Origin: Kipferlia bialata | Lineage: Eukaryota | NCBI GenBank assembly: GCA_003568945.1 | Contig: BDIP01000080.1 | Location: forward strand, 1 to 33,132 | Length of the DNA stretch: 33,132 nucleotides | Reading direction: 5' to 3' | In this document: positions 55 through 33,049 of the stretch, in pieces | Layout: each line of letters begins with the position of its first letter | Position numbering within the stretch: the stretch's first letter is position 1 | Notes under the pieces: model-generated | Seen by the model: only the letters and a program-made list of their open reading frames with translations | Databases searched by the model: none | What the model was told of the DNA's origin: nothing | Program-made: the position numbers and the translations under genes

Positions 55-149
55 GTTTCTGATCCCCATTGTCATTGTCATTGTCCTGTGGCAGTGGCCC
101 GCCATTGTGTTGACCACAGTGGATCCCAATGACCACCCAGTGGTATGTT

Positions 150-185
<36 letters not shown>

Positions 186-678
186 TTTGACTCCACCACG
201 TCAATGTATGTGGTTTGTATCCATCTCTCTCTTCCCATCTCTCTATGTATATATGTGTATATACATGAGTGTATATCTAACATTGCTATACCCACCCCCA
301 GACCCAGTCCATGCACATCTCTCTCTTTTCTATATTAAATATTCTATATTCATGTTGATATTTGTGATATATAAATATGTATATATATCATATTTGTTCT
401 TGAGCCCCAGGCCCAGTCCATGCCCCTTGTGCCCACATGTGCTGTCTATGATGGCAGTGACGGGCGGTGAGTATTGTATAAGGGCAACTATTCTAATATA
501 TATATGTATATCTATAGGTAACATCTGGTATCTGTCTATGTACCTCCCTCCAGTGTATTTGCATACCCTTCATGCCATTTCTACATATGTGTATAATTGT
601 ATTTGACTGTATGTGTTTGTACCTTGACCACTGGAGGTGTACGGCGATCTCTGTAGGGTCTCTATATCCCTTTGCTGC

Positions 679-714
<36 letters not shown>

Positions 715-770
715 TCTCTAACCCCCTAGGTATGGCCCAGGTGTCCCCCAGCCTGACTCGCGGTGTCACA

Positions 771-808
<38 letters not shown>

Positions 809-1466
809 TGTACCATAATATTCATGTATATACACTAACACAGCTATGGCCCTGGTGTCCCCCAGCCTGACACTGAGTGTGTGTCTCTCCCTCTGTCTCT
901 ATATGTACCATAATATATATGTGTATATATACTAGCACAGCTATGGCCCGGGTGTCCCCCAGCCTGACACTGAGTGTGTGTGTCTCTCTCTCTCTATATA
1001 TATACCCTAATATATATGTTCACATATACTGACCCAGGTATGGCCCGGGTGTCCCCCAGCCTGACACTGAGTGTGTGTCTCTGGCCTTTGCCCCCGGTAA
1101 CAACATGGCTGTCAACAGAACTATGGACGCTTTAGTAGGTACCACATATTTTATTGTTTGTTATCCTCAATTCATACATGTATACATATATATATATATA
1201 CAAGTTGGACAATCAACAGGACCATGGACGCACTCGTGGGTACGTCATGTTGGATAGTGGTTGTTGATGTATATGTGATATGTATGAGTATATATGCATG
1301 GCTGTCAACCGGACAATGGACGCATTAGTAGGTACGTACTGTTATGATTATACATGTATATGTATATGTATGTGTATATGGCTGTAAACTGAACCATGGA
1401 CGCACTGGTCGTTACGGACAGCGTAGTGTATAGAGTGTACCGACTTCGACATTATCCCCATTGTAT

Positions 1467-1506
<40 letters not shown>

Positions 1507-4500
1507 CCCAGCTGACTTTGGGTGGGAGGGTGAGACTGTCATATACTTACCATTGTCTCTCCATACAATTATCTTTGAGATACGTGCCTCATTACCCTAA
1601 CTCCCCAGCTGAGTTTGGGTGGGAGGATGAGTCCATCATGGTCTTTGACTCTGGCACTGCTCTGAACAACTACGCCAACAGCAACCCAGGCGTCATATGG
1701 CTAGGTGGGGTCTTTACACATACTCATCATCTATTTTACCTATGTCATATATGTAGTAGTGATAGTAGTAACACTATGTCTGTATATTGTTTTATCTGTT
1801 TGTAGTATTGTATACATACCCGCTCTATTATGTATGCCGTTCATAGTATACACACCTCACCCCAGGTGTCTCCTTTGCCGGTGTGACTGACACTGAGACC
1901 CTCCCTGCCAACATAGACTACACCATACACTACAACCAGACCATTCTAGGTATGAGCATAGAGTCTGCATTCATGAATCTCGCTATATATATACTTAATA
2001 TCTGTTCCTACCCCCATACAATGACTACCTGTACATGACATCTTGTACATTTATAGTTATATATATAAATATATATAGTATTCATATCTACTCTGACCCC
2101 AGACAATGCCTACCTGTACATGACATCTTGTACATTTATAGTTATATATATATATATTGTATACTATATCTACTCTGACCCCAGACAATGCCTACCTGTA
2201 CATGACCGATGGACTGGACCCCCTGGCAGACGAGTATGGCAAGGTGTATGACTCAATTACATNNNNNNNNNNNNNNNNNNNNNNNNNNNNNNNNNNNNNN
2301 NNNNNNNNNNNNNNNNNNNNNNNNNNNNNNNNNNNNNNNNNNNNNNNNNNNNNNNNNNNNNTATATATATATATGACAGATGGACTGGACCCCCTGGCAG
2401 ACGAGTATGGCAAGGTATATGATATATATATGCATACTATATATAGATAATGTTTGTATATAGTAGTTGCCTTGTCTGGCTTCACCCTCTATGCCCAGCA
2501 TGATCTATATCCCTCTCTCTATATTTATATATATATTTATATATTAACACCCCAGGTTGCCTGGTCCGGCTTCACCCTCTATGCCCAGCATGCTGTGGAG
2601 AAGGCAGTCATATACGAGCAGACAGGGACAACATTTGACCCACTGGTAAGTGTATAGTCACACATACCCGTATATAGGTGTGTATATGAGTACATATAGA
2701 GTGTGTTACTATAATAGTTACCGCAATCGGAGGTATTATTAGACATGGATATCATTTGACCCACTTGTACGTATAAGTTTGTAATTTGATGTGTGTTGGT
2801 TCTATATATATCTGACTCGTATAAGTAGTAATTATTGGGTTCATACTCACTGTTCCTTCTCACACTAGGTCAAGGGATACCCCTCGAGAAGTCTAGCTGA
2901 TGAGTTCATGCTGCCAGGTATGGGATATAGCAGTAACATATATAAACACTATATACATATTGTGTGTATAATCTACTCTACTATACAGTGCTTGAGTTCA
3001 TGCTGCCAGGTGTGGGATGCTATGATATATGTATACATATACCATACTATGTATGTGTTGTAAGCAAACAGTATACCTGATGAGTTCATGCTGTCAGGTA
3101 GCGGATTACTATTACTATGTTGTAAGATATATACTGTGTATATGATGTCTCTAGGTATACAGTGCTTGAGTCCCTGCTGCCAGGTAGGGGATTGTGTAGA
3201 GCATTCAATACCGATAGTGTATTCTGCAATCCGTGAAATCGTAGTCAGTGTCGTCGTGCTACCAGATATGAGTGCAAGCAGAATACTGTAATTGTGTATG
3301 ATTCATTCTACATTTGAATGTCACTACATTCCTCCCCCACCCCCAGACCCCATGACCAGTGCCGTCCTGATATCAATGCTGCTGTCATATCAGGTAACTC
3401 GATGGTGATTCATGTATGTGCCTCTATTGCTTGCTCAGCACTGTGCATATACATTAGTGTGTGTGGTATACATGCTCCTGTCATATCAGGTGTCGTGACT
3501 CTCATCCACCTGTGTTACTTGGTACTTCTTGCTAATTCACTGTACATGCACACACATACATATCTCACTCCAGATATTCATGGTTGCCCAAGGTGCTGTG
3601 GTTGAGAAGAAACAAGGGAAACTGGAGGCTCTGAGAGTAATGGGAGTGAGGTATGGTCTCTATCTCGCTTACACAGAAATATGTATACTCTTCCTATATG
3701 GGAGTGATGTATATATATATATATGCTCTTCTGCTGACTGAACTGGCCCTCTCTTTTTTTGTCTCTCGCTCTCTCTCTCTCTCTCTCAATATATATATTT
3801 GTATATTATATGTATACTCTACTACGCTCTACTTTTACCCCAGAGACCCCCTGTACTGGCTGAGTTGGGCCCTCGTCCAGATGTTCATCTTCACCCTCAC
3901 TCTGATACCCTTCCTCCTGTTGCTGCACTTGATACCGGACTGTGACATCTTTGGATACGTGGATGTGGGTGAGTATATGTATAGCATATATAGTGTATAT
4001 AGTATGTATATATATATATGTGTTATAGTATATACCTGACTGTGACATATTTGGATACGTGGATGTGGGTGAGTGGGTGTGCTATACCTGTATACAGTGT
4101 GTGTACGATATTTGTATGAATCAGAATCAAGATGAGAGCTATTTCTTTCCATAATCCCATCTGCACCCCATCTACAGGTGTCACCTTCACCCTATTCTTC
4201 ATAATCGAGTATTTGTCAGTCTACATAATACCAGTAAATGTACTATATATATATATACATATTGTTACCCCTATATGTATGTCTTCCCGTTCTATCCTAC
4301 ACCCACTTCAGGCGTCACCTTCACCCTGTTCTTCATATTCGGCCTGGCAGCAACGTCCCTGGGACTGTTCGTGGGTATGCCGGTTAAGAGATATAGCGTA
4401 TATATACACATAGACAGCAACGTCCTTGAGACTGTTTGTGGGTAAGTATGTTGCGATGGTGATTAAATTGTCATCTCTGTTTCACGTATGTTCACATTTG

Positions 4501-6485
4501 AATTCATACTGATTCTGACCCCATGCTGTGTAACGACTGGCATCAATAATCAGTATATATATTATTATGTATTTGATCACGTTTATATTTATATATCTCT
4601 ATCCCTTCTGACCCCATGCTGTGTGACGACTGGCATCATCGGGGCCATGATCATGTGTCTGCTGATCACAATCACAGGTAGGGACTGGGGTTCAAGACTA
4701 CAATATATATCAGTATCTATATATGTACTCATGTACAGTATTCTGGATGTTGATCTAGCAGTGATAGGTAACTGCTTTCCACTGATACTCTCTATCCTTT
4801 GTCTCCATATTGTGTCTGAGTACTATTGTCACTCCTCTGTAACCCCCCACGTGATCGTACTCTATTTGCATATATATATATAGTTGTATCCATGTGACTC
4901 TCATGCCCCATGTTTGGCCAGATAATCTGTCTCTCTCTGTATATATATATATATATATATATATCCTAACCCTCAGGCATTCTGTGCCCCATGTTCGGCC
5001 AGATTGATGCCGATCTCATCTTCTACGATCCATCCTTCATACCCGTCGTGCTGCAAGTCATCCTGTTCAACATATTCCCGTTCATCCCACTGGCAGTATC
5101 ATTGGGGTACGTTAATAGTAATATAAGTATAGAGAGAGAGATGTGTATGCATGTAGTATCATCCTGTTCAACATATTCCCATTCATCCCGCTGGCCCTCT
5201 CACTAGGGTTCGTGGATACATTTTACATTGTGTTGCCACTCTCTCTCTCCCTCTCTCTACACCCCCTCTTCACCCCAGGGCCATGTACATCGTTGTGTTC
5301 CCCAGTGTCACTATCGACATGAACACATACGAGACAATCATTGTGCCACCTAGCGAGAGGTATTCATCCCACATTCTATGATAGTATTGCTGTATTTAGT
5401 ATCAGTATTTAGGCAAATACATATACAAAGTGTTTCACTGTACTGTGAACACATACGAGACAATCATGGTACCACCGAAGTGTATATACGTATGTATATA
5501 CTCATGTCAGGTTCACCTTTGCCATGCTGTTTGGGTCTGACCTCTATCAGTACGAGGGCATGGCCTGCATGGGGGGAGGTATGTATTCATGGCCGCGATA
5601 TATATATATATATATATATGATTGTATCTTTACTGTCACCCTCCCCCCCAGGCTGTTCCTATGACACCCCCCCTGTGGCCATTGCCCTGGTCAACTTGAT
5701 AGTCAGTGCGGTGCTGTGGCTGCTACTCACTTGGATAGTAGGTATTATATATAATAGATATACATATATATGACGTGGATAGTAGGTATTATACATAGTA
5801 GATATACATATATATGACGTGGATAGTAGGTATCTCCTATATTGCATATATGTAGTAATTGTAGTAGATACTTGTCAGTGCGGTGCTGTGGCTGCTGTTG
5901 ACTTGGATAGTAGGTATCTCCTATGCCATTCATTCATTGTTTTGAATACAGTGATTATCTCAAATATTGTAGAATCAATTTCCAATGTATAAATGTGTAT
6001 TGTATAAGCCGTACGTCTCTGTTTGTAGTATCAGTGTCACTATCACTATATACATTCCCCCACCCCAGGTGAGTGGATGAGCAAGAACGGCAGTATCAGT
6101 ATGAGTATGTGTCAGAATGTGTATATATCTATGTATATATATATGTGTCTATATATCTAACCATAGGGGAGTGGATGGCCAAGAACGGCAGCCCGGGTCG
6201 CAACCCCCTGCAGCTACTCCACAGGTAATGGTACATATAGATGTTGTATATTCTAGTGTTACTAGTGACTATATAGATACTCACTGTTCTTCATATGATA
6301 TATAGATATATATATATATAGATATGTCCTTCATTGACAGTGACCAGTATTGTATTCTCATGTCACATGATAGTAGTAGTATCAGTATATTCTCATGCCA
6401 CATGAAAGATACTATCAGGGTATCATCATTCTATTCTCATGCCCCAGGAGCTACTGGTCCGAGAGTGTCCCAGGCCAGAGTCAAG
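55..6485 (+). CDS. ABCA: ABCA exons 1-19: TM1, first exocytoplasmic domain and TMD1
   Basis: Exons: 55-142, 411-466, 1038-1138, 1609-1704, 1866-1949, 2185-2243, 2556-2645, 2869-2917, 3347-3393, 3574-3650, 3844-3968, 4312-4374, 4618-4677 (AT acceptor inferred), 4977-5106, 5279-5359, 5511-5578, 5652-5741, 6167-6224, 6448-6485. Translation includes FLIPIVIVIVLWQW, WSGFTLYAQHAVEKA, VVEKKQGKLEALRVMGVRDPLYWLSW, several hydrophobic helices and RSYW. Confidence 0.85.
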
Positions 6486-9400
6486 GTACGGCATATATAT
6501 ATATATATACATATATACTTACTGTTACATATATTATATACATCCATATAGTATCCCAGGGAGTGTCCCGGGCCAGAGTCAAGGTGCGGTAGAGTATCTG
6601 TATATCCATGTATACATTAATTATACATACATATTTGTTACTGTATTAGTATATACTCCCAGAGTGTCCCAGGCCAGAGTCAGGGTACGGCAGAGTATAT
6701 ACATGTATCCATATGCATCCATTAAATGTCCCATTGCACCCCACTTTCAGACAGGCACAAGTCTATGTCTTTCTTGTTATATATATATATAAAAATATGA
6801 ATATGCATACTCACCACTCCACACAGGCACAAGACTCTCTCTCTTTCTCTATGTATATATATGACTATATGGTATTTACGTATTAGTCTATACTCATCTA
6901 TACTCACCCCTTCAGACAGGCACAAGCGTGTCCCTGTCCCCTACAATGAGGCAACGGGTACAGCTGACAGGCTGGAGCCCTTAGACTCAGGTGCATATAT
7001 ACACCTGTACATAGTTGTCCCATGTGTATATATATGTAACTATAACAAATATATTGTACAGCTTACAGGCTGGATCCCTTGGACTCAGGCATTAATATAA
7101 CTATATACATGTCTAGTTATATGCATATCCATATACACCTAACCCGTAGATGTATGACAGGAGATTGTGTCTTTCCTAGCCATTTTATCATGATAGTACT
7201 CCATGTATATGTTTGTATATACATACACGTCTCACCCCCAGATGCATGACAGGAGATGGTGTCTGTACATTCTCTGTCTCTATGGGACCATATATAAGTG
7301 TATTCCTCCTCTGGACTTAGTACCTGTATATATATATATACATACATACCTAACCCTAGATGTGAGACAGGAGATGGTGTCTGTGCTGACACACCCGTCG
7401 CTGGAGAAGGCAGTGGTGAGTGTATGTATGCATATATCCGATTGTATACCATACATTGTGGAAATATACGTTTTTAGTGTGTATATATAGACATCCATCG
7501 CTGGAGAAGGCAGTGGTGAGTGCATGTATGTAAAAATATATATATTCAGATAGGTATGTATAGGTAGTTCGGCGATGAATACGACAGCGTTAGTATTGTA
7601 TGGTAAAAGCATTTATACTTGTATTTCTGGTTGGATTCTCAATTCGTCTGACCCGTGTCCTTCATTTTCACTCTAGGTTGTTGCCCACTCTCTGGACAAG
7701 ACCTTCAGGACACGGGGCAAGTCATATAACAAGGCGGTGGACGGAATCACGCTCAGGTATATATATTTATATATATGTATATATATGTATATATATATGC
7801 GTGTGTCTTACACGTATGACCATGGTACTCAACAAGTATATGACTTGATCTGATACAACAACAATGGATGGATTTGGCCTCAGGCATGCACTGCATCTTG
7901 CTTCACATAGGAGTGTTTTGTAATATACTCTTAATCCTATATATGAGTGTTCTTTATAGTAGTGCATCTCATCCGAGGATCAAGCAGGGCCAGACCTTCT
8001 GTCTCCTGGGCCACAATGGGGCAGGGAAGAGTACCACCATAGACATGCTCACAGGTACAGTATTTGTCACAGTAGTGTATATAGAGTGTGTATATACATA
8101 AGTATCACAGTTGAGATGCTCACAGGTGTATAGGCAGTGGCATTAATGTATACGTGTTGTATCAATGATATATACAAGTACCACCATAGACATACTCACA
8201 GGCATATATATATAGTGTACAAAGTCCCCCAGTGACATACCCATAGGGTCATTCGTACTTAATGGCCACAGTCGTACCATCCTTAGGCCTAACCCCAGGC
8301 ACCCTGAAGCCCGACAACCCCGCCTCCTCCAGACTGGGCAAGGCCTGGATCAGTGGGCTCTCACTCAACAAGCACCCGCTGCAGATCAGGTACATGCCTA
8401 TATATTTGCTTATGTCTTTACTAATACCCACAGTACTATTTCTTTCAGTCTTACCCTCACAGGCGTACTCTAGGCATCTGTATCTAACGCCCACAATATA
8501 CACACCCTAACACTATATCAACCACCACCATCCATTCATTCCATTTATACCCACCCCCAGGCGCACCCTTGGCATCTGCCCCCAGGGCAACACCACCATA
8601 TGGCCATCCCTGACACCCATGCAGCACATGTGGATAGTGGGCATGCTCAAGGGTGTGTAATATATAGGATATGCACTGGTATATATATGTATATATATTT
8701 ATGGATATGAGTGTGTGCTGTAAACCTATATGTGAATATAAGTATATACCCATGCAGCACATGTGGATAGTGGGCATGCTCAAGGGTGTGTATATATGAT
8801 ATGTATATATCGTATATGTATATGTGAGTGTATTCTGTACGTATATGCAGCACATGTGGATAGTGGGCATGCTCAAGGGTGGGTATATTGGATATATATA
8901 TGTGTGTGTATGTATGTATATATATGTATATATATACACCCATGCAGCACATGTGGATAGTGGGCATGCTCAAGAGTGGGTATATTGGATATATATATAT
9001 GTGTGTGAGATGTATGTTTGTATATGTATATCCATGCAGCACACACACACATATATATATATGTGTGATATGTATGCACTCTCACCCCGGACATACCCAA
9101 GTGTCCAATACACACATATGTATATATATATATATGTGTGTGTGTATATATATATGTATGTATATATATATGTGTGTGTATATGTATGCACTCTCATCCC
9201 CAGGCATCCCCAAGTGCCTTATTCAGAACATGGCCATTGTGTTGTCTTGCCATTATATACTATATGTGTTCTGTATCTACTCTCTATCTACTCTCTATCC
9301 ATCCCCACCCCCAGGCATACCCAAGTGCCTCATTCAGAACATGGCCCTAGAGCTGCTGGGCTATGTTGATCTACTCGATGTCAAGAACAAACCGGCTGGA

Positions 9401-12400
9401 CAGTACGTGACTTGGATGTATCACTTGTAGACATTGTATGTACTAGAGTGACACACATACATCACCCATATACCCACTCTCATGTCAGGACAGTACGTGA
9501 CATGGATATATATCACATAGATATTTCACTCATTGGTAGTGTGTATACTGTCATATGAGGTGGATCTAGGTGGATATATATACCCTCTCTCATGTCAGGT
9601 TCTCGGGTGGTATGCTGCGGCGTCTGTGCATAGCCATGGCATTCACAGGGTGCCCAAGGCTGGTCATACTGGATGAACCATCGACAGGTGTATGAGATAG
9701 ATATAGATAGATGGATAGACATATATATAGATAGATAGATAGATAGATGAACCATCGACAGGTGAGTTTAGATATAGATATATATAGATATATATATATA
9801 TATATAGTTAAGCAGTATGTGCAGGTCATACTGGACGAACCATCGACAGGTGTGTGTAGAAGTATGGATATAGTACAGGTATTCTGATATGGACGAGCCG
9901 TGTAGGAGCGTGGGTACACATGGTGTACCTCAGTATGGCATCACCATTGTATTCATTGATACTATAATATACTGCGACTGATCCTAGGCCTAGACCCCAT
10001 TGCCAGGCACATTGTGTACCCTATATATACATATGTATAATTCTATATGTGTATAGTGTAATTCACTTACTCCAGGCCTAGACCCCATTGCGAGACACAC
10101 TGTGTGGACTCATACTCTATATATATGTGTGTGTGTATATCGTGTGTAGTGAATAGTCTAACCCCAGGCCTAGACCCCATTGCCAGACACACTGTGTGGA
10201 CTCGTACTCTCTGTCACTCTCTCTCTCNNNNNNNNNNNNNNNNNNNNNNNNNNNNNNNNNNNNNNNNNNNNNNNNNNNNNNNNNNNNNNNNNNNNNNNNN
10301 NNNNNATTACTATTTCTAAATCCCAGGCCTCGACCCCATTGCCAGACACACTGTGTGGACAGCAGTGGAGGCCATCACTGGGAAGAGGCAGCAGATGCCG
10401 ACATACGGCAGGAATGGACACCTCAGAAGGTAACGTATCATTTGGCTGATGCCAGTAGTGCAGAGATTAGTACTTATATCTCTTCTGGGATGGTGGACCC
10501 TCCCTCACTATGTACAATATTCATACATTATAATATGTATTGTATACATTATAATATGTAAACATAAAGCCTTACCCTAGGAAGTGGGCTCCCCCACCTG
10601 CTATTACGAAGTAGTACTAGTAGATACTATATACATTCAAATACTATGCATACCATACCCTGACACCTAGGAAGTGGGACCCCCCACTCACTCTGTAGAG
10701 TGTGATCATACCCATATCCTGTATCCATATATACAGTGTATGTATATATATACATATACAGTGTTATCCTTACCTTAGGAAGTGGGCCCCCCCACCTGCT
10801 GTGATGCTGACCAGCCATGACATGCCAGAGGCAGAGAGGCTGGGGGACGTGGTGGCAATCATGAGCAAGGTGGGGATGTATAGTGTGTCCTACTAGTTGT
10901 ATATGTATACTAATTGCTATATATGTATATGTATCTGTGTGGCAATCATGAGCAGGATGGAGACATACATAAATGGAATGTTCTTACATGTATATATGGA
11001 TATGAAGAGATATATAAGGATATGAAGAGAAAGATATGTTTCAGCTATATGTATATCCATCTTACTGAGTGTGGTGGCAATCATGCGCAAGGGATGGTGT
11101 ATCCTTATGGAAATATCCCTTATGTAGCAATAGTGTAGCAATCATTCTGCCTCTTGGAAGTTGTGTTGGCTATTGGCAAGTTGTGGATGCGATACCAGTT
11201 CTTCCACTCTCTCACCCCAGGGTCAGATTGCAGCCCTTGGCACAGTCATGCACCTCAAGGTATGTGTGTGTGTACATATGGAGATACAGTCTGATTCCCT
11301 ATTAATACCCCTGATTCTCTCTGTATGTCAGCTGATACCAGTATTTTCTTACACTCTGTACATATATGTATAGATACACCCACTGACCCCAGGCCAAGTT
11401 TGGGACAGGCTTTGTGATATCAGTTGTGGCAGACGCTGCTAACCACACGTCCAGGATAGCACGGGCTATTAGGAGGTATGTGAGATATATATACATAGAG
11501 TGTAGAAATAGTGTGTACTACTGTATGTCAATACTTCTACCATAGCATAGGATATTTGGAGGTGTATACATATGTATTGTTCATAGTATATATTTGCTGT
11601 ATATCCATACTCTCCCGAGTATAGTATAGCCTCTGCATACATATATCTCACTCAGGTCATGCCGTGATATGGACATTGACTATGTGGACCTCGCACCAGA
11701 GCTAGAAGGTACCACAGTTATATGGTATTGTGATACACAAGGCAGTAGTTTGTATACATACATGAATATGCATATGTATATATATATATCATAGACTATG
11801 TGGACCTGGCACCAGAGCTTGAAGGTATTGGTTGCATCATAACCTACAATACTATTTTCAATGTATCACAGTACAGCACACGCACACACACATACATATA
11901 TTTATATATATATATATATATACATGTCCTTATACCCCAGGTGTCACTTCCGATGCCCAGGAGGAGGAGGGACCGAGACAGTGGGGTGAGGGAGAGGAGG
12001 GAGAGCGAGAGGGAGAGGAGGAGGATGACGAACCTGAGCCAACAGGCAGAGGTATGCATATATGGCAATGTATACTATATATACAGTAGTCCAGGTGTTG
12101 TGGAACCGGCCTATTCTTCTGCTTACCTGATACTGATACTGATACCTCAGGTGGCTTCACTGAGGCCCTCATGGATCTATACGACGACCCAGAGTCTGAG
12201 GTGCGTATGTATACCAATATATATACCATTATATATACACTACACCATTTGTGTCCATTATTTACTCTATTCATTGCCTCATGGATCTATACGACGACCC
12301 AGAGTCGGAGGTGCGTATGTACTACTGTATGTGTATTCTCATTAGTATATTTGACGACTCAGAATCTAAAGGGTGGACAGTGAGTCATTTCGCTCTCTCT

Positions 12401-15166: not shown

Positions 15167-15200
<34 letters not shown>

Positions 15201-18178: not shown

Positions 18179-18222
<44 letters not shown>

Positions 18223-21200: not shown

Positions 21201-24200
21201 GGTGGAGACATTATATATGGACATATATATATATATATGTAGTTGTATGCTGCATGTACTTGCATAACAGCCAGGTGGGGTCATGGATATATATGTATAG
21301 ATATGTACATATATGCATGATACACTTGCATACCTTCCTCCAAGAGGAAATGTGCCACTTGAGTGCATGTCTAACCCGCAGTGATGGAGAGAGAGCTGAA
21401 GCTGTTCAGTCTACTACAACTCAAGGGCATGCCTGCATACGTGTACTGGATCACTCTGCTCGGATACGACATGGCCCTGTGTGAGTGCTACATGTATATT
21501 GTTATGTATTTGTATATGTGTATATATGTATATACCCGATTTGTGTAGGTATACCATCAAGAGCTGTGGTTCTGTGATTGGGCATTACTCGGATACGACG
21601 TGGCCCTATGTGAGTGAAGTATTATGTTTATGTGTACCTATGAAGGCATTTGTTAATAGCCACTTGATGACCTTCTCTGACCCAGGCACCTGCATGACAC
21701 TGTTCCCCAATGTATGAACGGATATAGATATATTAATATATGGGTGTATATTAGTCTCTCTATGCTATTCTAGCTATTCTGACTCAGGCACCTGCATGAC
21801 CCTGTTCCTCTATGTCACGGGGCACCTATTCAGCATTGACGCAATCACAAGGTATCGGCATGTATATATATGCTATATATATATACTATATTTACTACAT
21901 ATATAATGGTCATAGACGCAATCACAAGGTATCGGCCTGTATCATATATATATATCACTTTAGTGTATATACCGTTTTGTTATGAATACATATTCGGCCT
22001 GGCTACTATATTGGCCAAGTTTCCTATTTGTGTCTCTCCCTGTCAGCCCAGGGTGTCCTTCCTGGCCAGTGACTCTTTCTGTTGTCATGACACCATACTA
22101 ACCCTCTGACTCTCTCTCTCTCTATACTATCCTTTTTTTCTCCATACTCTTTCCCCAGGATGTCCTTCCTGGCCCTATCTGTCTATCATCTGATATCTGA
22201 TATGAATATACTATATATACATCACCAATCTCATCCCCAGGATGTCCTTCCTGGCCTTGGTAGTTGTCATGACCATCATGTACTTCAACCTGGTCTGCTT
22301 CGCCATGCTGGTATCAGCATTCCTGCCCAACACTAAGGTACCGTGGATTGTAGTATTTAATAGTATGTACCACTGTCCTCCCCAACACTAAGGTTCACAT
22401 GCAGTGCAGTGCATGTTGGTGTGGCTCTTGAAGTATCCCATATCTCTCATCCAGTATAGTAAGTCAATACAGCGTTACACATACTGCTCCATACCCTAAC
22501 TCCCCTAGGTCTCCAGTGTCCTCCTCAATGCCTTCTACAGTTGCACAGTCGTGGTCACCATGATATTCTTCAGTGTCTATGACCCAGTCACCCTGTGGCA
22601 CGCACTCATACCACCCATGGTACGGAGTATACACGTACTACATATATATTTGTGTGTGTCTATATGCAAATATGGTTCACTTCTGTGTCTATCACCATCC
22701 TCTGCCCTCCCTCACCCCCTAGCTCTGCGTGACCCTCATCGGCAAGATGACATTCAGGGGATACAACATTGTGTCTCTGTTTGAGTCTCCCCTGATGCCC
22801 TTGTTGGCCATAGCAATAGGGGTCGGAGGTACTGTAGATGCTGAGTATTCATATATTCATATCACTCCAATGTGAACATTTACACTCGTCTTGTTACTGG
22901 CACCTAGCCATAGTCATCGTCTACAGTGTTATGCAGAGTTGCCCCATGTCTCACCCCCAGTGGTCTATCTGATCCTCGCTGTGTACTTTGATGCAGTCAT
23001 ACCAAAGAAGGTTGGTGCATGACATATATATTGGATATAGTTATATAGATATTTGTGTATATATTTCACTATGTCTTTGAAACCCTTGTTTATATGTATA
23101 TATGAGCACAGTATTTGTATAGTCATGTCCAAGAAGGTGGGGGGATGCCATGTATATATGTATATATAATAATCCATATATGTGTATATATGTATTTGGG
23201 AGAAGGAAATTTGCTCTTGTCGTGTTCTAATATACATCCTATCGTTAACTGGATACTGCATCGTTCAGCAGTGACTGCCAAGTATGTTCATATATACAGC
23301 AATACCCTCACCTCCAGGGCACTCTGGGTGTGAGGCGGTCTGTGTTCTACCCCCTACTGAGTATCATAGACATAGGGACCATGCTGCTAGGGTACATCAT
23401 GTGCTGTGGGGTCAGGTACGATGTGATATGTATTATATATATTTATATATATATATATACATATAGTCTATGAACTATGTATATCCATAATGATGTCTCT
23501 CATGTGCTTAGGTCATTTACATATTGGGTTCATGTATATGAAACTATGTGTATATAGGCACACGTTGAGAATATGTGCTGGTGAGATGGGTAATAAATGG
23601 TGTTCTTGACCTTGCATGGTGGCTGACCCTAGATACCGACCCAGGCATAGGAGGTCTCCTGTCCAGGCGCAGGGTCAGCCAGAGTACATGAAGGAGGCGG
23701 GTGAGGGGACATGTATGTATTTATATAGTTTACATATTTCTATATACATGTATGTATATAGAGACAGAGAGATGTCACATTGGCCTGAGTACATGACCCA
23801 GGCCCCGATCCCTTCATGCATGGTATTAGTGTATATAGATGTAGTTATATATATATATATATATATGTATGTATATATCTACATGTCTCATATCTTCTCA
23901 TCGCCAGGCCCCGATGCCTTCATGCCAGTTGGTGGTATGCCTGATGAGTACTCGGTGATAGCAGCCAGGGAGACATACGAGGTATATATATGTATATATA
24001 TATATGTGTGTGTGTGTGTTCTACCTACATATATACAGTGATAGCAGCCAGGGAGACATACGAGGTGGGAGGGTGTTGTACACTATATACTTTGTACATG
24101 AGTTCTATGGATATTTATCATAACGAAAACATCTCACTACCAATGTACCCACTCCTCTCACCCCCCAGGCGAGTCAGGCTGGGGATGATGTCAGTCCCCC

Positions 24201-25347
24201 CGGCCACCCCAGAGTGGACCAAGGGGAGGGCGAGGCACTGGGTGATACCGACTATGCACAGAGAGAGGGGGAGAGAGAGGCAGAGGCAGAGGCAGGGGTG
24301 GTCAGAAGTGCCCAGCTGGATGGAGGTATATATATGTATATGGGTGTGACACTCCAAATGCGCTACTGCCCCACCCATCAGAGTATAGCATGTACTATCC
24401 ATTGGTGTCTACTCGCCCTACCCTACAGTACTCTAGTCATCTGTTATAGTCTTAGCATCGTATATATGGATATGTGTATACACTTGCTGTGTTCCCTTAC
24501 CATCCAGTCCGAGAGATCCAGCCTGACTCCGACTGTCCCATCGACCAAGGTCACCCAGACACAGAGGGGATGGGAGGGGGAGAGAGAGAGGCAGACGACG
24601 AAGAGACGTCCATTATGCCCACAGTGTTTGCAGTCAGAGGCGGGGAGGTAGTGGTTGACTCTAGTCTTTCTATCCCACTGCACATACACTGAGATCGTCG
24701 GCTAGATGTCTCAACTATTATACCGTATGTTTACTCACCCCCAGAGAGACCACAACACTGTCTGGGACGGAGGGTTCGAGAGGGACGACTTTGCAGGTAT
24801 ATTCATGCATATATATGTGCATATATATATATATGTGTGTGTGTGTATATATACGGCATATGTGCATGAGGAGAGGGAAGACGTTGCAGGTTGGTGTGCA
24901 TATGTACATACCCATATGTACATACCCATATGTACATACCCATTTGTATATACCCATATGTAAGTATTCCGCAGAGACCATATTCTTTATACGACACCGT
25001 CATGTCCCTCACCCTTAGGCCTTGCCGGTATGCACTCCTCCTCTGTGGACAGTGACACCCAGAGCAGTGCCAGGTGTGTGTGTGGTGTATATACATGTTA
25101 ATATGAGCTCATGCATGTAATAGTATAGTATATATACACCCAGAGCAGCAGTGCAGGGTATGGATATACTGTTGGTACATGAATATGAATATGTGATACA
25201 GTATCTGTACCAGACCAGCAGTGCTAGGTGTGTATAGGATACACATATGTATATGAGCTCAGTAATGTATGCACACATATGTTGTTTGCACATATATGTA
25301 TCATATCACCCAGGTCCAACCAGAGTATACATGGATATTGGGATTTA

Positions 25348-25382
<35 letters not shown>

Positions 25383-28300
25383 GTCCATGACTCCTCTCTC
25401 ACCTCAGGTCCAACCAGAGTGTGGACAGTGTCACTGGCATCACCACCGCAGACACAGGCTCACCCACATTCCTAGTCAACCAGGTACTGTCATGTATACA
25501 CAAGGTGTATAATACACTTTCCAATGTCTTAGCCAGCGAAGGCCTCCCTACATTCCTGGTCAACCAGGTGTGGACTGGCACTGGGACTATGCTGTGTATT
25601 GATGGAATAGTATCATTCTACACTTCCCCAAATGCCCATATCAGTATTGTCCCAATATATCCTGCCAACTCTCTATGTCTTATTACTATGCCATTCTGTC
25701 ACTGTCTCCCCTGAATCACTTTGTATCCATACCCCCACCCCTCACCCCCAGTCTGTGTCCGGTCTGAGTCTGGGTCTGGTATGCTCATATGCAATATATA
25801 TATATATATATATATATATTATCTATATGTATACACCCCTCACCCCCAGTCTGTGTCCGGTCTGAGTCTGGGCGACATGAGCTCAGTCAGTGACCACCAG
25901 GTGGGGGATATGGAGATATATATGTGTAGATGTATATCATATGTAGACAAATTTCATATGTAGATGAATATCCGTAGTATAATCATATGTATCACTATCA
26001 GTCAGTGGACACCAGGTGGGGTTGTGTATGTGTTTCTATGGTCTAGTGGTCACGTGAATTGTGTATATAGGACATATAGTAGGTTTGCATCTTGACTAAC
26101 ACCCAGGCCTCCCCCCTACCTGGTCAAGCAGAGAGTCAGGACGGAGTGGCAGCAGTGGCCACTGACAGAGAGGCAGGGAGAGAGACTGGGGTAGAGACAC
26201 CCCTTGTGGAGAGAGAGGCAGCCCAGCCCGACAGTGCAGGTGTCTATCTATCACATATACAAGCACCATGGTGTAACAAATAGCTACGTGTCTTATAGGA
26301 TAGCTATGTGTATATGAGGTATGTGCACCATATCCCTGCCCTCATACCCAGACCCCCCTGTGTCTCCAGACCCCAGTCCAGCACAGCCAGCACTGCCACC
26401 AATAGGTACATGTTTATATATATACATCTATATATATACACTATATATCTGTTGGGTATATATGTGTATCACATTATACTTGAATACCACCAATAGGTAC
26501 ACGTACTATACATGTGTATACTGTACATTTGATTAGTACATGTACAATATATATACTATATATTGGATTTCTCTGTGAAGTCTCTGTTGACCTGTGTGGT
26601 GTTTAGTGTACATCACTAGGATAGTCAGTTCTTACGCTGTGTTGAGCGTCTGCATCCATGTATCATGGCGTCATTCAATAGTGTCCCTCACCCTAGGCGA
26701 CCTCTATAACACCAATGTGTTTGAGACATCAGTCACATCCCAGCCCACCCTGCTGGCATCCCAGACAGAGGTGAGAGATGATATGTAGATATATATACAT
26801 CAGTCATTAATGATTACTGTACTATGTGAGTGTATCTCTCTCACCCCCAGGCCTCTGTGTCAGACAGTGATGACCAGAGGGACAGGGGGAGACCCATAGC
26901 CATATCCCTGCCACTGCTGCCAGGTGAAGGGGTTGATTGTGTATATACCTCTAGGATGATAGGGTAACTACATTCAATAATAGTACAACCATATACCTAA
27001 TCCTGGCCCTATATTGAGTACAGTTCATATACATTGCCCCCTGATCCTAGTCCCCTGTCGCAGGACCAATGTGCATGACGTGAGGGACACTGTCATGAGA
27101 CACAACCCGGTGGACATAGATGTGATGGATGAGAGGTATGTGGTTCATGCATTGGGTGCTATATGTATATATACATACATTATTACTATATATTATAATG
27201 GCATTACTGACGTCATGGATGAAAGGTGGGGTACAGGCATGTGTATATACATATATACTATGTAGAGTGACATTGTTGGGATGGACGTCATGGATGAGAG
27301 GTGGGGGATACTGGCATTAGATGTAGTACATATAGTATATAGTGGCATTGTTGACATAGACGTCATGGATTAGAGGTATGGCGATTGTGGCAGTGTTGAT
27401 GTGTGTGCCCTGTGTTCTTTCTGGCTTCCAGTGGCCATATCACAGTATATACTCATTCTGACCCCCAGGAGGGAGGTCGCCACCTTCACCAGGGATACCC
27501 ACCCACTCATAGTGGCCAACATGCAGAAGTACTACCCACCCAGGTATGTACATATATATAGTATCATCAGTCTGTTCATCAGACTCTATATACATATGGC
27601 AGAGTAGATGGCAGAAGTACTACCCACCCAGGTACTGTAGGATTGTCACTGAGTGTATACCAGTGTTCAAATGATGGTTATCAGTGTCATTTGTGTATTG
27701 TTTGGCACTGATGTTCTGTATCTCCTTTACCCCAGATTCGTTGCCGTGCGTGATGTCTGTTTCTATGTGGAGAACAACACGGCAATGGCACTGTTGGGGC
27801 CTAATGGGGCAGGTCAGGCCGCGTAGGGTGCATGTGTATATAGTATATGTATAGTATATGAATAGTATATGTATAGTGCAATGGGGCAGGTCAGTCCACG
27901 TGTTGTGTATTGTATACACAGTGTTTAGTGTAGTATACATGAGTTGTATGCCGCCTGTAGGGCAAGTTAGTCTACGTCGGACCCATGTATACTAGTGTCT
28001 ATTCTGTATGATGTGACTGATGTGTGTTCTCTTCCCAACTGTGTCAGCATCTTCCATGTATTGTATGTGTCGTCTGTGACCATATACACGTATGAATATC
28101 AGTGAGTGATGTATTGGTATCAGTATCATATGCAGTCACCCACCAAGTGCACAATGTACCCTCAACTCTGTCTGTCCATGCCTTCCCCTCACGTCCAGGC
28201 AAGACCACCACCATCAGAGCAGTCACGGGACTCACAGCTCCAACCAGGTGTGTGATTAGTACTGGTGTTGGTCCCGTAGTTGTGTACATATCAGCTTTAC

Positions 28301-28693
28301 CATCAGGGGCACTGCCTCTGTGTCAGGTGACAATATCATATATAAATATACATATATATACTATATATGTACCCTAACCATCAGGGGCACTGCCTTTGTG
28401 TCTGGTGACAATGTGGCCAGAAGGCCAGCCAAGGTCCAGAAGCACCTGGGCCTGTGTCCCCAGCATGACGTGTGTGTGGTGGTGTATATATACTTACAGG
28501 ATCTATGTCTTTTAGTATCGTACATCAATGGATGTATAGCAGACATTTATATTATATATATATATATACATATATCTATTAACCATTCCCCTCTTCTCAC
28601 CCCAGCTACTTCCCCTCCCTCACTGTCCGGCAGCACTTCTCCCTGTTCTGCAGAATCAGAGGGGTCCAGAGGAAGATGGTGTGTAATACTTAC

Positions 28694-28733
<40 letters not shown>

Positions 28734-31700
28734 AATAGTGTAATACCTACTATATAATTAGTATATATAATTGATTGCTTTCTTGGAGTCTGTGTGTATT
28801 CTGTTGTGTCTCTCTCACCCCAGGAGAATGCCGTTGTGGAGTCTCTGGCCAAGTTCCTGGACCTCTACCCAGCCATAGACAGACGGGCAGACGCACTCAG
28901 CGGGGGGATGAGGAGGAGGTGAGTGGTGTATATATACAGCTAATATGAATGGTAGAGGATTTGTCAGTTCATCTGTGTTTGTAGTTTCAAGTACGACCCT
29001 TGTGTGACCTCTGACACCCAGACTGTCTCTAGGCATAGCCCTGATATGTATATCATATATATATATATCTTGATATGGTATATATGTATTGTATAAGTAC
29101 TCTAATATCCCAGACTGTCTCTAGGCATAGCCCTGATAGGATCGCCCTCGGTCTTAGTACTGGACGAACCCTCAACGTGAGTGTATTGGATATATAGTCT
29201 GGATTCGGATGTGCTCGTTTCTTGACCAACCCCATAACTTGTTGGAGTGGTATCTGTATATGTGTATACTGTAGATATCCCTTCTGCACTCACACTAATA
29301 CCCAGCGGTCTAGACCCCATGACCAGACGGAGTATTGTATACAAACACTCACCAGTATATGTATATACTCCTATGAATACACTATGTATTAGATATCTAC
29401 TAATACCCCAGCGGCCTAGACCCCATGACCAGAAGTCATATATGTATATACAAATAGTGTATATATGTGTCATATCCACACTCTACTCACCCCCCAGCGG
29501 CCTAGACCCCATGACCAGGAGGAGTGTGTGGAAGACAATCGACAAGGCCAAGGAGCACAGGGTGCTGCTACTCACTACGCATAATGTGAGTATATATACT
29601 GTGTATATACTATATATACTATATATATATATATATATAGTAGACCATCGACAAGGTCAAGGAGCACAGGGTGCTACTGTTGACAACACACAATGTGAGT
29701 ATATATACAATGTATATACTATATATATACTATATATATATATATACTATATATATAGTAGACGATCGACAAGGCCAAGGAGCATCAGGTGCTATTACTC
29801 ACTACACACAATGTGAGTGGGGTATACTACTTCTACATATATAGTATGTATGTGTGACCTGAGTGTGGTGTATCACATCCTAGTATTCAGAGTGTGTAGT
29901 TCATCCTATCACTTTCATTCACTCTCGGCAGAGACCCATGACTCTTTACCTCTCATGTTCTAACACACAAGCAAGATGTACTTGTATATTCCTATCACTG
30001 TAGATGGAGGAGCCGATGCCCTCTCTCTCTCTCCCTTCCTATATGTCTATATATACACATAAGTATTGTAATGTATACTCATCAGTCTCTTACCCCCAGA
30101 TGGAGGAGGCCGATGCCCTGTCCCAGAAGATAGGCGTCATGGTGGCAGGTATATATATATGGTATATATAGGTATATATACTTATATGTATAAGTGAAGG
30201 ACTATATACAGGTGAGTATATTTATATGTTTGAAGATAGGCGTCATGGTGGCAGGTATGTCTCAGTTTAGCGTATCCTATATATCATCGTATAGGTTATA
30301 TTGGTATTAGTTAGTATAGATCAAGACATTGGCGTCGTGGTGGCAGGTATATGAATAATAGTATATGAACAATAGTATATGAATATGTATTGTATATACC
30401 AGAAGATAGGCGTCCTGGTGGCAGGTGGATATGTGTATATATGTATATACATGTATGACAACACATATCTGTAATGATATAGTAGTGTATACCAGAAGAT
30501 AGGCGTCATGGTGGCAGGAAGACGTGTATGTGGGTATAGGTAAATACATATACCCGAGAATTGGTTGACTGATGTGTATTCACCTGACCATGTGTTCCAT
30601 ATATATATCTGATGGGTATATATATTTACTGGTTTACCAATGCCTCACCCTAGGCCAGATGAAGGCCATCAGGATATATATACTTAAACATACTTGTATA
30701 CAATTATACTACTAAATACTACTGAGTATATATTCTCATCTCACTCCCAGGCCAGATGAAGGCCATTGGGATATATATATTTATGGTCATTCACATGGAC
30801 ATGTACATATATTCGTGTATATATTCATCTATCGCGATACTGACCCCAGGTCAGATGAAGGCCATTGGGTCTCGGTTCCACCTCAAGGCGAGATACGGCA
30901 GTGGCTACATCATATCCGTCAAGCATGCCGCAAACAACGGTACAACCATACACAACAGGTATAGATTTCCATACATACATGTATACCAAAGAAAGCATTG
31001 AGACAACCATACATAACAGGTATGAGGTGTCTATACTTGTAGCTAACACTACCCCCAGGCTGTTCATGATCAACAGACACATTGTCAACACAGCCTCCCA
31101 GGAGACACCCGTGACAGGTTGTGTATGTATAAATGTATATATATATACATAGATACTGTATACTGTATACTCCCAGGAGACACCCGTGACAGGTACAGAC
31201 ATATAGTGTGATGATTTATAGAAATACATACATTCGTACATATTCTATACACTATGTACTCCCAGGGAAACCCGTGACAGGTATATGTATATATAGTCCT
31301 CTGTGCAGCTAACTCTAGGCCGTGTTGTGTCCCAGTTCACCCTAGCCTATGGGCACCCAGTCTCAGAGATACTACAGGTGGGTGGTCATATCTACCCACT
31401 CCCTGTCACTCCTTGTCACTCCTTGTCACTTGTAGTCCATCCACTGACACATTACACTGTACATGTCACAAAGCATGATTTCTCAGCACCATTTGCCCAC
31501 CTATATTGTTTTATGGATGTATATACTTGCATATACTGGTATATGCTTGTATACACTCGTATATACTGGTATATGCTTGTATATCCTTGCATACACTCTC
31601 TCTGTTCCTCACCCCCACCCCAGGAGTTGATATCCCTCAAGGCAGAGGGTGTGGCCTTTGAGTATGGCCTAGTGTTCTCCAGTCTCGAGGGTGCCTTCCT

Positions 31701-32279
31701 CAATGTGGTCACTAGTGCAGTGCAGGAGACATCGGCAGGTGGGGATATATCCAGATACATATGTATACATATAATCACATACATATATATATATATATGT
31801 ATATGTGTGTGTATGGCCATATAGTATGCTGAGGAGTAGTGTAGGAGACATCGGCAGGTGGTACATTTAGGAGTCGGATATACGTTTGTATCTACCATTG
31901 AGACCGCTCAGTATATCATTGGTATATTTATATAGATCTCCATGCACCCTATCTTCCTAGCCCTGACCCCAGGCACCAATGAGGAGTCTGACGTGTCAGT
32001 ACCCGAGTGGGACAGAATGAGGAGAGGGAGGTATGACATAGTTATATAGATATAGTGTGTATGATAGACAAATATATGCATGCATAGTGGGACAGGATGA
32101 GGAGGGGCACATCGATATTATTATAATATCATATCATATATAGAGTTATATGTTGTGGTACTATGACCCATCGTCCCTTGACCTACACATTCCCAGTACA
32201 GTAGTATTCAGTATGCATATCTGTCTACATCCCCTTACCATTGTATGATCCCTTGTCCCCTGAGGTATATATATATATT

Positions 32280-32310
<31 letters not shown>

Positions 32311-32934: not shown

Positions 32935-33016
32935 ATATGGGCCGCATCCACATCCCCCTCCCTGCCTCGTTCAACGTGGCAGCACACCTCAGAATGGCAT
33001 GCATGATACACACATG
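32935..33016 (+). CDS. Probable exon of a downstream gene, product unknown
   Basis: Typical acceptor CTGACTCCAG (ends 32934), GC-rich 82 nt and a GTGAGA donor. Open in two frames, e.g. MGRIHIPLPASFNVAAHLRMACMIHT from ATG 32937. No upstream coding exon could be joined. Confidence 0.4.
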
Positions 33017-33049
33017 GTGAGACAGGACATGGCACCGGTGTCTCATCGG

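What the first reader, a model, noticed from the sequence alone, without database searches (positions are those of the whole stretch)
291..32106. Gene-wide system of polarised 'exon echoes': introns contain partial copies of flanking exon ends with their splice sites
Seen: a large share of the 94 introns contain 1-5 direct-orientation copies, about 12-55 nt long, of the adjacent exon edge. Polarity is consistent. Copies of [exon 3' end + GT donor] lie downstream of their exon (exons 3, 6, 8, 11, 14, 17, 19, 21, 23, 25, 27, 32, 34, 35, 45, 48, 52, 54, 55, 80, 88, 89, 91). Copies of [branch/AG acceptor + exon 5' end] lie upstream (exons 2, 3, 4, 6, 12, 13, 18, 20, 21, 25, 26, 28, 29, 36, 40, 43, 48, 51, 52, 59, 60, 62, 63, 75, 84, 87, 88, 89, 90). 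Whole exons are essentially never duplicated. Short introns of 70-100 nt lack echoes, and long introns are long largely because of them. Inference: a recurrent local duplication process centred on exon-intron junctions drives intron growth. I do not know a described system with this regularity.
Basis: partly seen in the sequence, partly recalled or inferred. Interest (0 to 1): 0.92.

Follow-up and report, generated by a model that had tools for sequence, protein, structure and literature searches.

The report
Fossil alleles beside protist splice sites
In a 95-exon transporter gene of a Kipferlia-type protist, two thirds of the introns hold spare copies of the neighbouring exon's edge with its splice signal, and these copies differ from the exon mostly at silent positions, so they are likely leftovers of recombination between strongly diverged alleles.

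Summary
An ABCA gene (95 exons; 75% identical to Kipferlia bialata GIQ79794.1) carries 133 junction copies in 66 of 94 introns. Exon 3' ends lie only downstream and 5' ends only upstream. Raw DNA contigs contain them; RNA-like contigs splice past them. Polarity is simply the geometry of a duplication across one junction, and the pattern has a name: amphioxus 'mirages'. This scan noted it before in two sea-urchin genes.

New here: density; a narrow unit (median 93 nt); almost no copied piece under 10 nt; a TA-rich spacer that is not a copy of the adjacent intron in single echoes (4 of 56, chance level). Echo-versus-exon differences are five times commoner at 4-fold than at 0-fold sites (CI 3.5-7.8), where duplication plus decay gives 2. 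The amino-acid changes look neutral, so echoes no longer code but diverged while coding.

Best reading (0.55): recombination between diverged alleles that pair only through exon sequence creates and refreshes the echoes. One gene only; no second allele was seen. New variant of a known kind; interest 0.72.

The parts
55..32394 (+). ABCA-family full transporter gene, 95 exons / 94 introns in the window (5' end lies upstream); exons 38-157 nt (median 76), introns 73-776 nt (median 230)
   Evidence: seven joints confirmed by RNA-like contigs
302..314 (+). acceptor echo of exon 2 (411-466)
730..985 (+). three acceptor echoes of exon 3 (1038-1138): 730-757, 845-888, 942-985; two are whole-unit repeats, period 97
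1213..1411 (+). three donor echoes of exon 3: 1213-1239, 1297-1331, 1378-1411; 13 codons changed silently, 1 to a stop
1512..1542 (+). acceptor echo of exon 4
2018..2502 (+). exon 6 acceptor echoes (2018-2039, 2103-2124), exon 6 donor echo (2370-2414, next to an N gap), exon 7 acceptor echo (2466-2502)
2741..3708 (+). donor echoes of exon 7 (2741-2766), exon 8 (2993-3009, 3070-3097, 3167-3183), exon 9 (3464-3489), exon 10 (ends 3708)
4032..5485 (+). echoes of exons 11-15: 4032-4068 D, 4178-4207 A, 4415-4441 D, 4525-4545 A, 4904-4923 A, 5159-5207 D, 5446-5476 D (D donor type, A acceptor type)
5772..6093 (+). three donor echoes of exon 17 (ending 5785, 5829, 5913) and acceptor echo of exon 18 (6069-6093)
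6561..7515 (+). echoes of exons 19-21: 6561-6583 D, 6657-6684 D, 6751-6761 A, 6823-6833 A, 7056-7088 D, 7150-7172 A, 7242-7266 A, 7491-7515 D
8101..9235 (+). echoes of exons 23-26: 8101-8125 D, 8177-8201 D, 8463-8480 A (silent changes only), 8748-8785 D, 8845-8878 D, 8936-8975 D, 9091-9103 A, 9204-9235 A
9746..11091 (+). echoes of exons 27-29: 9746-9761 D, 9821-9849 D, 9988-10017 A, 10076-10109 A, 10168-10201 A (N gap follows), 10581-10602 A, 10671-10687 A, 10939-10956 D, 11071-11091 D
11542..12310 (+). donor echoes of exon 31 (ends 11561), exon 32 (11790-11824), exon 34 (12277-12310)
12538..13313 (+). longest intron (776 nt): five donor echoes of exon 35 (all 20-nt pieces, ending 12614, 12705, 12775, 12853, 12939), a core, two acceptor echoes of exon 36 (13131-13154, 13237-13252)
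   Evidence: DNA contig covers the acceptor echoes and an RNA-like contig enters at the last acceptor
13915..15664 (+). echoes of exons 39-44: 13915-13935 A, 14397-14416 A, 14489-14504 A, 15140-15157 D, 15273-15296 A, 15529-15548 D, 15651-15664 A; introns 39 and 43 are spliced at the outermost sites
16085..16410 (+). four donor echoes of exon 45 in the assembly; read depth implies about five near-identical copies of the first unit, collapsed
16916..17446 (+). exon 48 acceptor echo (16916-16949) and three donor echoes (ending 17178, 17266, 17446)
17984..20029 (+). echoes of exons 51-55: 17984-18003 A, 18274-18291 D, 18412-18442 A, 18711-18751 D, 19247-19266 D, 19319-19339 D, 19508 A, 19779-19809 D, 19875-19910 D, 19994-20029 D
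20693..22392 (+). echoes of exons 59-63: 20693-20709 A, 20888-20903 D, 20965-20997 A, end 21274 D, 21588-21609 D, 21686-21713 A, 21911-21928 D, 22052-22067 A, 22159-22174 A, 22376-22392 D
23121..26496 (+). echoes of exons 66-77: end 23136 D, 23802-23819 A, 24038-24064 D, 24871-24889 D, 25136-25154 D, end 25227 D, 25314-25326 A, 25547-25567 D, 25752-25774 A, 25998-26015 D, end 26496 D
27209..29046 (+). echoes of exons 80-87: donor echoes ending 27225, 27300, 27375, 27631, 27889; acceptor echoes 28307-28334, 29022-29046
29306..29812 (+). exon 88 (29498-29585): acceptor echoes 29306-29333, 29412-29435; donor echoes 29642-29694 and 29760-29812, three silent-site versions of nearly the same 17 codons
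30004..32110 (+). echoes of exons 89-94: 30004-30025 A, four donor echoes of exon 89 (ending 30254, 30346, 30424, 30517), 30654-30669 A, 30751-30770 A, 31003-31019 D, 31170-31192 D, 31267-31280 D, 31838-31857 D, 32086-32110 D

Best explanation
Each echo is a spliced-out copy of an exon edge with its splice signal that likely once served as the working exon edge of another, strongly diverged allele, and was likely left in the intron by out-of-register recombination between alleles that can pair only through exon sequence. Shown: the layout is exon - (TA-rich spacer + 3' piece + GT)n - core intron - (AG + 5' piece + TA-rich spacer)m - exon; pieces are mostly 13-37 nt, steps about 93 nt; splicing uses the outermost sites in the three echo-bearing introns seen in RNA-like contigs. 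Inferred steps: (1) a break near a junction is repaired from a homologue whose exon matches at about 85-95% but whose intron does not; (2) synthesis runs about 65-75 nt into the foreign intron and collapses in TA-rich DNA, the second end cannot anneal across the unlike intron and is end-joined, so the new edge sits next to the exon and the old edge is pushed into the intron (variant A, about 0.3); or an older slippage duplicate has only its exon piece refreshed by short conversion tracts from working alleles (variant B, about 0.25); (3) exon-echo mispairing then multiplies whole units, giving arrays with a shared inner boundary; (4) selection removes whole-exon copies and acceptor-before-donor pairs, and exon definition makes single-junction copies harmless; (5) after release an echo decays neutrally. 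Polarity follows from geometry and needs no machinery of its own.
For: Silent bias: 80 of 479 four-fold sites against 60 of 1981 zero-fold sites differ (122 echoes); ratio 5.1, bootstrap over 80 arrays 3.5-7.8, never <=2 in 5000 resamples, and lost when the frame is shifted. It holds for single echoes (4.7), array members (6.2), donors and acceptors, echo against echo (3.7) and for each base separately. Simulated duplication plus neutral decay with the same detection filter gives 1.9-2.0 at every age; prior coding divergence of 0.15-0.2 plus neutral age 0.05 reproduces the observed rates. Amino-acid changes behave neutrally: 5 of 65 are stops (4.1% expected); they hit conserved codons as often as variable ones (51/731 vs 13/165, P=0.74) and match the homologue's residue in 3 of 64. 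Identity is about 90-95% on the exon side and falls to background by +7 to +9 (donor) and about -15 (acceptor), where splice signals end; echo signals score as high as true ones (1.64 vs 1.87 and 6.98 vs 7.50 bits). Spacer against core is unrelated in single echoes (4 of 56 at p<=0.05) but related between spacers in arrays (17 of 45; P=0.001), while introns 20% diverged would align in 97-100% of simulations. Spacers are TA-richer than cores, also position-matched. Pieces of 4-9 nt do not exceed background (10 seen, 15 expected by chance, plus about 13 under random breakpoints). The nearest echo is closer to the exon than the farthest in 15 arrays against 4. Within-array piece lengths are shared (0 of 5000 permutations). 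No acceptor echo precedes a donor echo in 20 of 21 introns with both; the 21st is a doubtful overlapping hit. Literature: metamonads lack NHEJ and rely on homologous recombination and alternative end joining (PMC8516963, passages); in hypervariable Schizophyllum crossovers concentrate in exons (PMC4209137, abstract).
Against: No second allele was seen: the DNA run shows no other letters over the covered part of 13001-17800, so allelic divergence of 0.15-0.2 is inferred, not measured, and sex in Kipferlia is not shown by anything I read. Alleles 15-20% apart at silent sites should have alignable introns unless TA-rich introns turn over much faster. Variant A does not by itself explain the lower limit on piece length; variant B does not explain the TA-rich spacer or the narrow step. 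Exon ends with echoes are not significantly more conserved than those without (0.76 vs 0.69, P=0.17). Only 1 pair of informative sites was available to test for recombination within arrays. One gene, one genome; RNA support is three introns, one low-depth contig each, from a run whose kind is guessed.
Confidence: 0.55

Rival explanations
1. Serial snapshots in one lineage: echoes arise by same-chromosome duplication and are then held under nucleotide-level selection (as splice-site decoys or regulators), or simply mutate four to five times more slowly than silent exon sites, so they preserve earlier states of the drifting exon while spacers scramble by slippage.
For: Echo signals are as strong as true ones; exon-private changes in arrays are all at degenerate sites (7 of 7); nearest echo is the most similar; needs no second allele (none seen).
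Against: The changes echoes do acquire look unselected at the protein level; 18 of 122 have lost the splice dinucleotide; 28 introns manage without an echo; no reason is known for slower mutation 90 nt away in the same transcript; spacers differ from cores in composition, not just in sequence.
Confidence: 0.2
2. Role swapping under hazard selection: echoes replace the working exon edge often enough, by slippage deletion or conversion, that amino-acid-changing and signal-destroying mutations in them are purged.
For: Predicts conservation of exactly the exon piece plus signal, a minimum piece length, and old unalignable spacers.
Against: Stops and changes at conserved residues are not depleted. 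By inference, an exchange rate high enough for selection to act would also erase silent differences or the echo itself unless population diversity is already very high, which returns to the main explanation.
Confidence: 0.1
3. Plain mirage: replication-slippage tandem duplications at random positions, filtered by selection, decaying neutrally, with hypermutable TA-rich spacers.
For: Explains polarity and the absence of whole exons; ten arrays are recognisable whole-unit repeats and one appears to be a young five-copy expansion. This likely describes the secondary growth of arrays.
Against: Predicts a 4-fold/0-fold ratio of 2 against 5.1 observed; predicts many short pieces (absent), spacer-core homology in single echoes (absent) and intron-only units of similar size (none by TRF).
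Confidence: 0.08
4. Functional alternative or recursive splicing: echoes are used as coding sequence or as intermediate splice sites.
For: Silent bias and intact signals; step length resembles the shortest introns (73-103 nt).
Against: Stops and neutral amino-acid changes; only 11 of 116 echo sites would give an in-frame, stop-free product; exons with donor echoes are not enriched for AG ends (35/46 vs 40/48) nor acceptor-echo exons for GT starts (5/34 vs 13/60), which recursion needs; seven of seven RNA joints use the model's sites.
Confidence: 0.04
5. Assembly artefact, such as concatenated haplotypes.
For: Two N gaps lie inside arrays; copy number is wrong in at least one array.
Against: Unbranched contigs at depth about 415 carry 8 echoes with flanks and 0 differences; up to 7 different echoes per intron; the error seen is undercounting.
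Confidence: 0.01

Closest known systems
Amphioxus 'mirages' (Adh3, globins BflGb6/BflGb9, TnC, PGBD5; PMC3087553 and PMC3902484, passages read; the original Adh3 paper not read)
   Same: Direct repeats spanning one exon-intron boundary, at either end of an exon, often keeping AG or GT, harmless to splicing, unstable in copy number; units of 10-160 bp.
   Different: Reported at a few loci, here in 66 of 94 introns of one gene. Mirage units of BflGb6 are 81-100% identical as units; here whole-unit likeness is seen in 10 arrays only and not in single echoes. The passages I read report no synonymous bias, no lower limit on the exon piece, no TA-rich spacer and call the mechanism unclear.
Intron gain by tandem duplication of an AGGT site (Rogers model; PMC3265369, passages read)
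   Same: Short intragenic duplication that copies splice signals and leaves the protein unchanged.
   Different: There the duplication lies inside an exon and creates a new intron; here it spans an existing junction and lengthens an intron.
Exon-biased recombination in hypervariable species (Schizophyllum commune; PMC4209137, abstract read)
   Same: Exons are the only stretches alike enough to pair between diverged alleles, the premise of the proposed mechanism.
   Different: That abstract describes in-register crossovers, not duplications at junctions.
Kipferlia bialata ABC transporter A, GIQ79794.1
   Same: Collinear ABCA protein, 1751 of 2325 aligned residues identical.
   Different: Not this gene: a paralogue in K. 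bialata or an orthologue in a relative. The K. bialata genome paper reports 124,912 introns and has no occurrence of 'duplicat' in its main text (PMC5874029; supplements not read).

Membership tests
Mirage (junction-spanning minisatellite) | Direct repeat that includes one exon-intron boundary | tested here: met
   112 of 128 hits reach an exon end within 3 nt; 59 of 67 continue with GT, 40 of 45 are preceded by AG
Mirage (junction-spanning minisatellite) | Head-to-tail repeat of the whole unit, intron part included | tested here: inconclusive
   Met for 10 arrays and 17 of 45 spacer pairs; not met for single echoes, 4 of 56
Mirage (junction-spanning minisatellite) | Normal splicing is preserved | tested here: met
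   Outermost sites used at introns 39 and 43 and at the exon 36 acceptor; one low-depth contig each
Mirage (junction-spanning minisatellite) | Copy-number variation between haplotypes or cells | not testable with these tools
   One DNA run; depth shows a collapsed array but no second haplotype
Intron gain by tandem duplication (Rogers model) | Intron ends copy the flanking exons so that the duplicate's GT and AG form a new intron | tested here: not met
   Wrong-polarity junction hits 0 of 3012; echoes lie inside existing introns
Recursive splicing | Intermediate site regenerates a splice site (exon piece ending AG or starting GT) | tested here: not met
   No enrichment, P=0.45 and 0.59
Tandem or mutually exclusive exon duplication | Whole exon copied with both splice sites | tested here: not met
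   0 of 128 hits touch both ends; largest fraction copied 0.76
Retro-copied (mRNA-derived) fragments | Copy runs across the spliced exon-exon junction | tested here: not met
   38 loose 14-mer matches, none a true spliced junction; they fall on real splice sites or are chance; copies keep intron signal bases
ABCA transporter (host gene) | Two membrane domains and two ABC nucleotide-binding domains in one chain | tested here: met
   ABC_tran hits on exons 23 and 27; 75% identity along the chain to a protein named ABCA with two ABC_tran stretches

The most novel reading that the evidence does not exclude
Kipferlia introns are a fossil record of allelic recombination: aborted repair between hyperdiverse alleles deposits former working exon edges next to most junctions, genome-wide, builds about half of the intron DNA, and lets one haploid assembly reveal cryptic sex and silent-site diversity of 15-20% in a free-living fornicate. 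Mirages of amphioxus and sea urchins, recalled as highly polymorphic species, would be the sparse form of the same process.
Probability: 0.4. Interest if true: 0.87.

Novelty: new variant of a known kind. Interest (0 to 1): 0.72.

Why it matters
It offers a mechanism, testable with existing genome data, for a structure whose origin the mirage papers call unclear. It shows a route of intron growth that accounts for half of the intron DNA in this gene. If echoes are old alleles, they measure diversity and recombination in a protist lineage for which one genome is at hand. They are also a natural experiment in splice-site choice: an echo signal outscores the true one in 41 of 72 donors and 23 of 44 acceptors, yet the outermost site is used, in a genus whose spliceosome is reported as reduced (87 of 174 proteins, PMC6679479, abstract and passages). 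In practice they will mislead gene predictors and collapse short-read assemblies.

Tried and rejected
No whole genome is held, so the genome-wide test could not be run. An unsupervised gene finder took echoes for exons (169 exons); I curated the model by hand and checked it against RNA joints and the homologue. Three word-based protein searches with single exons found nothing; the ESM Atlas gave no usable hit. The metagenome scan covered 26 of 64 parts and returned three loci with a 23-residue match; they are GC 56-61% without TATATA and were dropped as unrelated. No RNA holder was listed on record; run X2 is only guessed to be RNA. The DNA run gave no cover at 16361-17800, which is no evidence. 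Rfam: 0 matches. I first read the 5x depth at exon 45 as matching the five assembled copies; one search showed those words are single-copy in the window, so the array is collapsed. Rows dropped: of 128 hits I removed 5 that do not reach a junction and 2 doubtful ones, and added 12 from junction-anchored scans to reach 133; codon statistics use 122 of the 128 (123, 112). Rejected: recursive splicing, mRNA origin, origin from the GIQ79794.1 lineage (3 of 64 residue matches), ongoing protein-level selection on echoes. Literature searches without a description of this pattern in Kipferlia or of silent bias in junction repeats; the library lacks most subscription journals and I read no supplements, so absence is weak. 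(repair mechanisms) was seen as a listing only and is not used as support.
Full report
1. The gene. The window holds one gene on the + strand, 55-32394, whose start lies upstream. I curated 95 exons (median 76 nt) and 94 introns (median 230 nt; 93 GT-AG, one GT-AT) giving 2489 codons without a stop. Seven joints in RNA-like contigs coincide with the model. A search of 1.84 billion representatives with exon 11 gave one hit, Kipferlia bialata ABC transporter A, GIQ79794.1; the model aligns to it at 1751 of 2325 residues, in 94 of 95 exons. The window is therefore from K. bialata or a close relative (inferred); it is not that protein's own locus.

2. The observation. With exon sequence alone as query, adjacent introns give 73 and 45 hits at score 12 or more against 0.38 and 0.39 expected, and next-nearest introns and the reverse strand give none. 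Of 128 hits at score 11 or more, 67 of 77 downstream ones touch the exon's 3' end and none its 5' end; 45 of 51 upstream ones touch the 5' end and none the 3' end. A junction-anchored scan finds 117 right-polarity and 0 wrong-polarity sites, 0.8 expected. The curated set is 133 echoes (83 donor, 50 acceptor) in 87 arrays and 66 introns, step median 93 nt, SD 22, range 44-180, covering 12,581 of 24,869 intron bases. Two unbranched DNA contigs carry 8 echoes without a difference; this run may be the assembly's source. At exon 45 the depth is about five times the flanks on words that occur once in the window, so the assembly undercounts there. Contigs of the RNA-like run skip the echoes in introns 39 and 43 and enter exon 36 at the last of three acceptors (one contig each, depth 3-5).

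3. Anatomy. Each affected intron reads: donor, spacer, exon 3' piece with GT (repeated), a core that itself runs GT to AG (median 116 nt), then AG with exon 5' piece, spacer, acceptor. In 20 of 21 introns with both kinds the donor echoes precede the acceptor echoes; the exception is a doubtful overlap. Pieces peak at 16-22 nt; 4-9 nt pieces do not exceed chance and pieces above 37 nt are scarce. Identity is 90-95% on the exon side and drops to background at the end of the splice signal. Echo signals are as strong as true ones (scored among echoes with an intact dinucleotide). Spacers are 72% AT with a TA step frequency of 0.215, cores 63% and 0.133; the difference holds next to donors (0.232 vs 0.163) and acceptors (0.240 vs 0.162, and 0.140 for acceptors without echo). 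Spacers match each other within arrays (17 of 45) but not the core in single echoes (4 of 56; arrays 6 of 30). Ten arrays are whole-unit tandem repeats and no intron-only repeat of that size was found; a separate scan of echo-masked introns gave 22 partly redundant hits against 3.2 expected, mostly spacers of young units, a missed echo, or short-period minisatellites.

4. The key result. Echoes differ from their exon at 80 of 479 four-fold and 60 of 1981 zero-fold sites; the ratio is 5.1 (3.5-7.8 over 80 arrays) and disappears in shifted frames. If a copy simply decays while the exon drifts at silent sites, the ratio cannot pass 2; simulation with the same filter gives 1.9-2.0, and fits the data only with 0.15-0.2 of earlier divergence confined to silent changes plus about 0.05 of neutral decay. 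The same bias appears between echoes (3.7) and in single echoes (4.7). Exon 88 and its two 53-nt echoes spell nearly the same peptide in three codon sets. The amino-acid changes include 5 stops in 65 and ignore conservation. So echoes are non-coding now and diverged earlier under coding constraint.

5. How it most likely works. Polarity is geometry: a direct duplication across a donor leaves the exon-joined copy first, across an acceptor last. Copies of a whole exon, or an acceptor placed before a donor, would make a false exon and are absent, as selection predicts (inferred). Use of the outermost sites despite equally strong inner ones points to definition across the short exons (inferred from established splicing models). 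The silent bias needs a second, working version of the exon, that is a diverged allele. Between such alleles only exons can pair, as in Schizophyllum (PMC4209137, abstract), and metamonads lack NHEJ and depend on homologous recombination and alternative end joining (PMC8516963, passages). I therefore favour out-of-register allelic recombination: either aborted repair that copies an exon edge and about 70 nt of foreign intron and is then end-joined (A), or conversion that refreshes only the exon piece of an older duplicate (B). Exon-echo mispairing then multiplies units, as the shared piece lengths, the whole-unit arrays and the collapsed young array show. A accounts for the TA-rich, unrelated spacer and the narrow step; B for the minimum piece length. 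Neither accounts for everything, and no second allele was observed. Confidence 0.55; rivals are frozen same-lineage snapshots (0.2), role swapping (0.1), plain slippage (0.08), functional splicing (0.04) and artefact (0.01).

6. Relation to what is known. The echoes work like mirages and meet two of their defining features; whole-unit repetition is met only in arrays, and variation between haplotypes could not be tested. They are not new introns of the Rogers type (PMC3265369, passages), not recursive sites, not duplicated exons and not mRNA copies. The K. bialata genome paper does not mention duplications in its main text (I read passages and section 7). Seven searches found no account of this pattern in Kipferlia or of silent bias in junction repeats; subscription journals, the original Adh3 paper and supplements were not seen.

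7. Verdict. New variant of a known kind, interest 0.72; the genome-wide fossil-allele reading has probability about 0.4 and would merit 0.87.

Noticed in passing
window 4375-4617 (intron 12) and 4513-4545: The intron ends in AT, not AG, seven bases after the branch A (the modal distance); its echo has the same AT. Exon 13 is real: 15 of 19 residues match the homologue. Suggests acceptor choice by distance from the branch point.
   Followed up: partly
window 9403-9598 (intron 26): Looks like a whole-intron duplicate: an acceptor copy, a 4-nt remnant of the exon 26 end and a donor copy abut at about 9481-9500. Too short for my filters; not in the count.
   Followed up: no
whole gene: 12.6 introns per kb of coding sequence, even intron phases (31/35/28) and 75 of 94 exons ending in AG; by recalled knowledge this resembles lineage-specific intron gain at AG sites more than ancestral retention, against the reading in PMC5874029.
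   Followed up: partly
window 16060-16180: Read depth of about five times the flanks on words that are single-copy in the window: a collapsed young array.
   Followed up: partly
window 2263-2361 and 10228-10305: Both N gaps lie inside echo arrays.
   Followed up: no
window 31319-31377 (exon 92): This exon has no counterpart in the annotated homologue (0 of 19 aligned): missed in that annotation or an insertion here.
   Followed up: no
window 24899-24962 and 31518-31597: Intron-only minisatellites with short periods (14; 10 or 30 nt), unlike the junction units.
   Followed up: no
window 32936-33018: Probable exon of the next gene on the + strand, with the same acceptor style and an open 28-codon frame.
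   Followed up: partly
L001-L003: Metagenome loci with a weak 23-residue match; composition unlike the window; treated as chance.
   Followed up: partly
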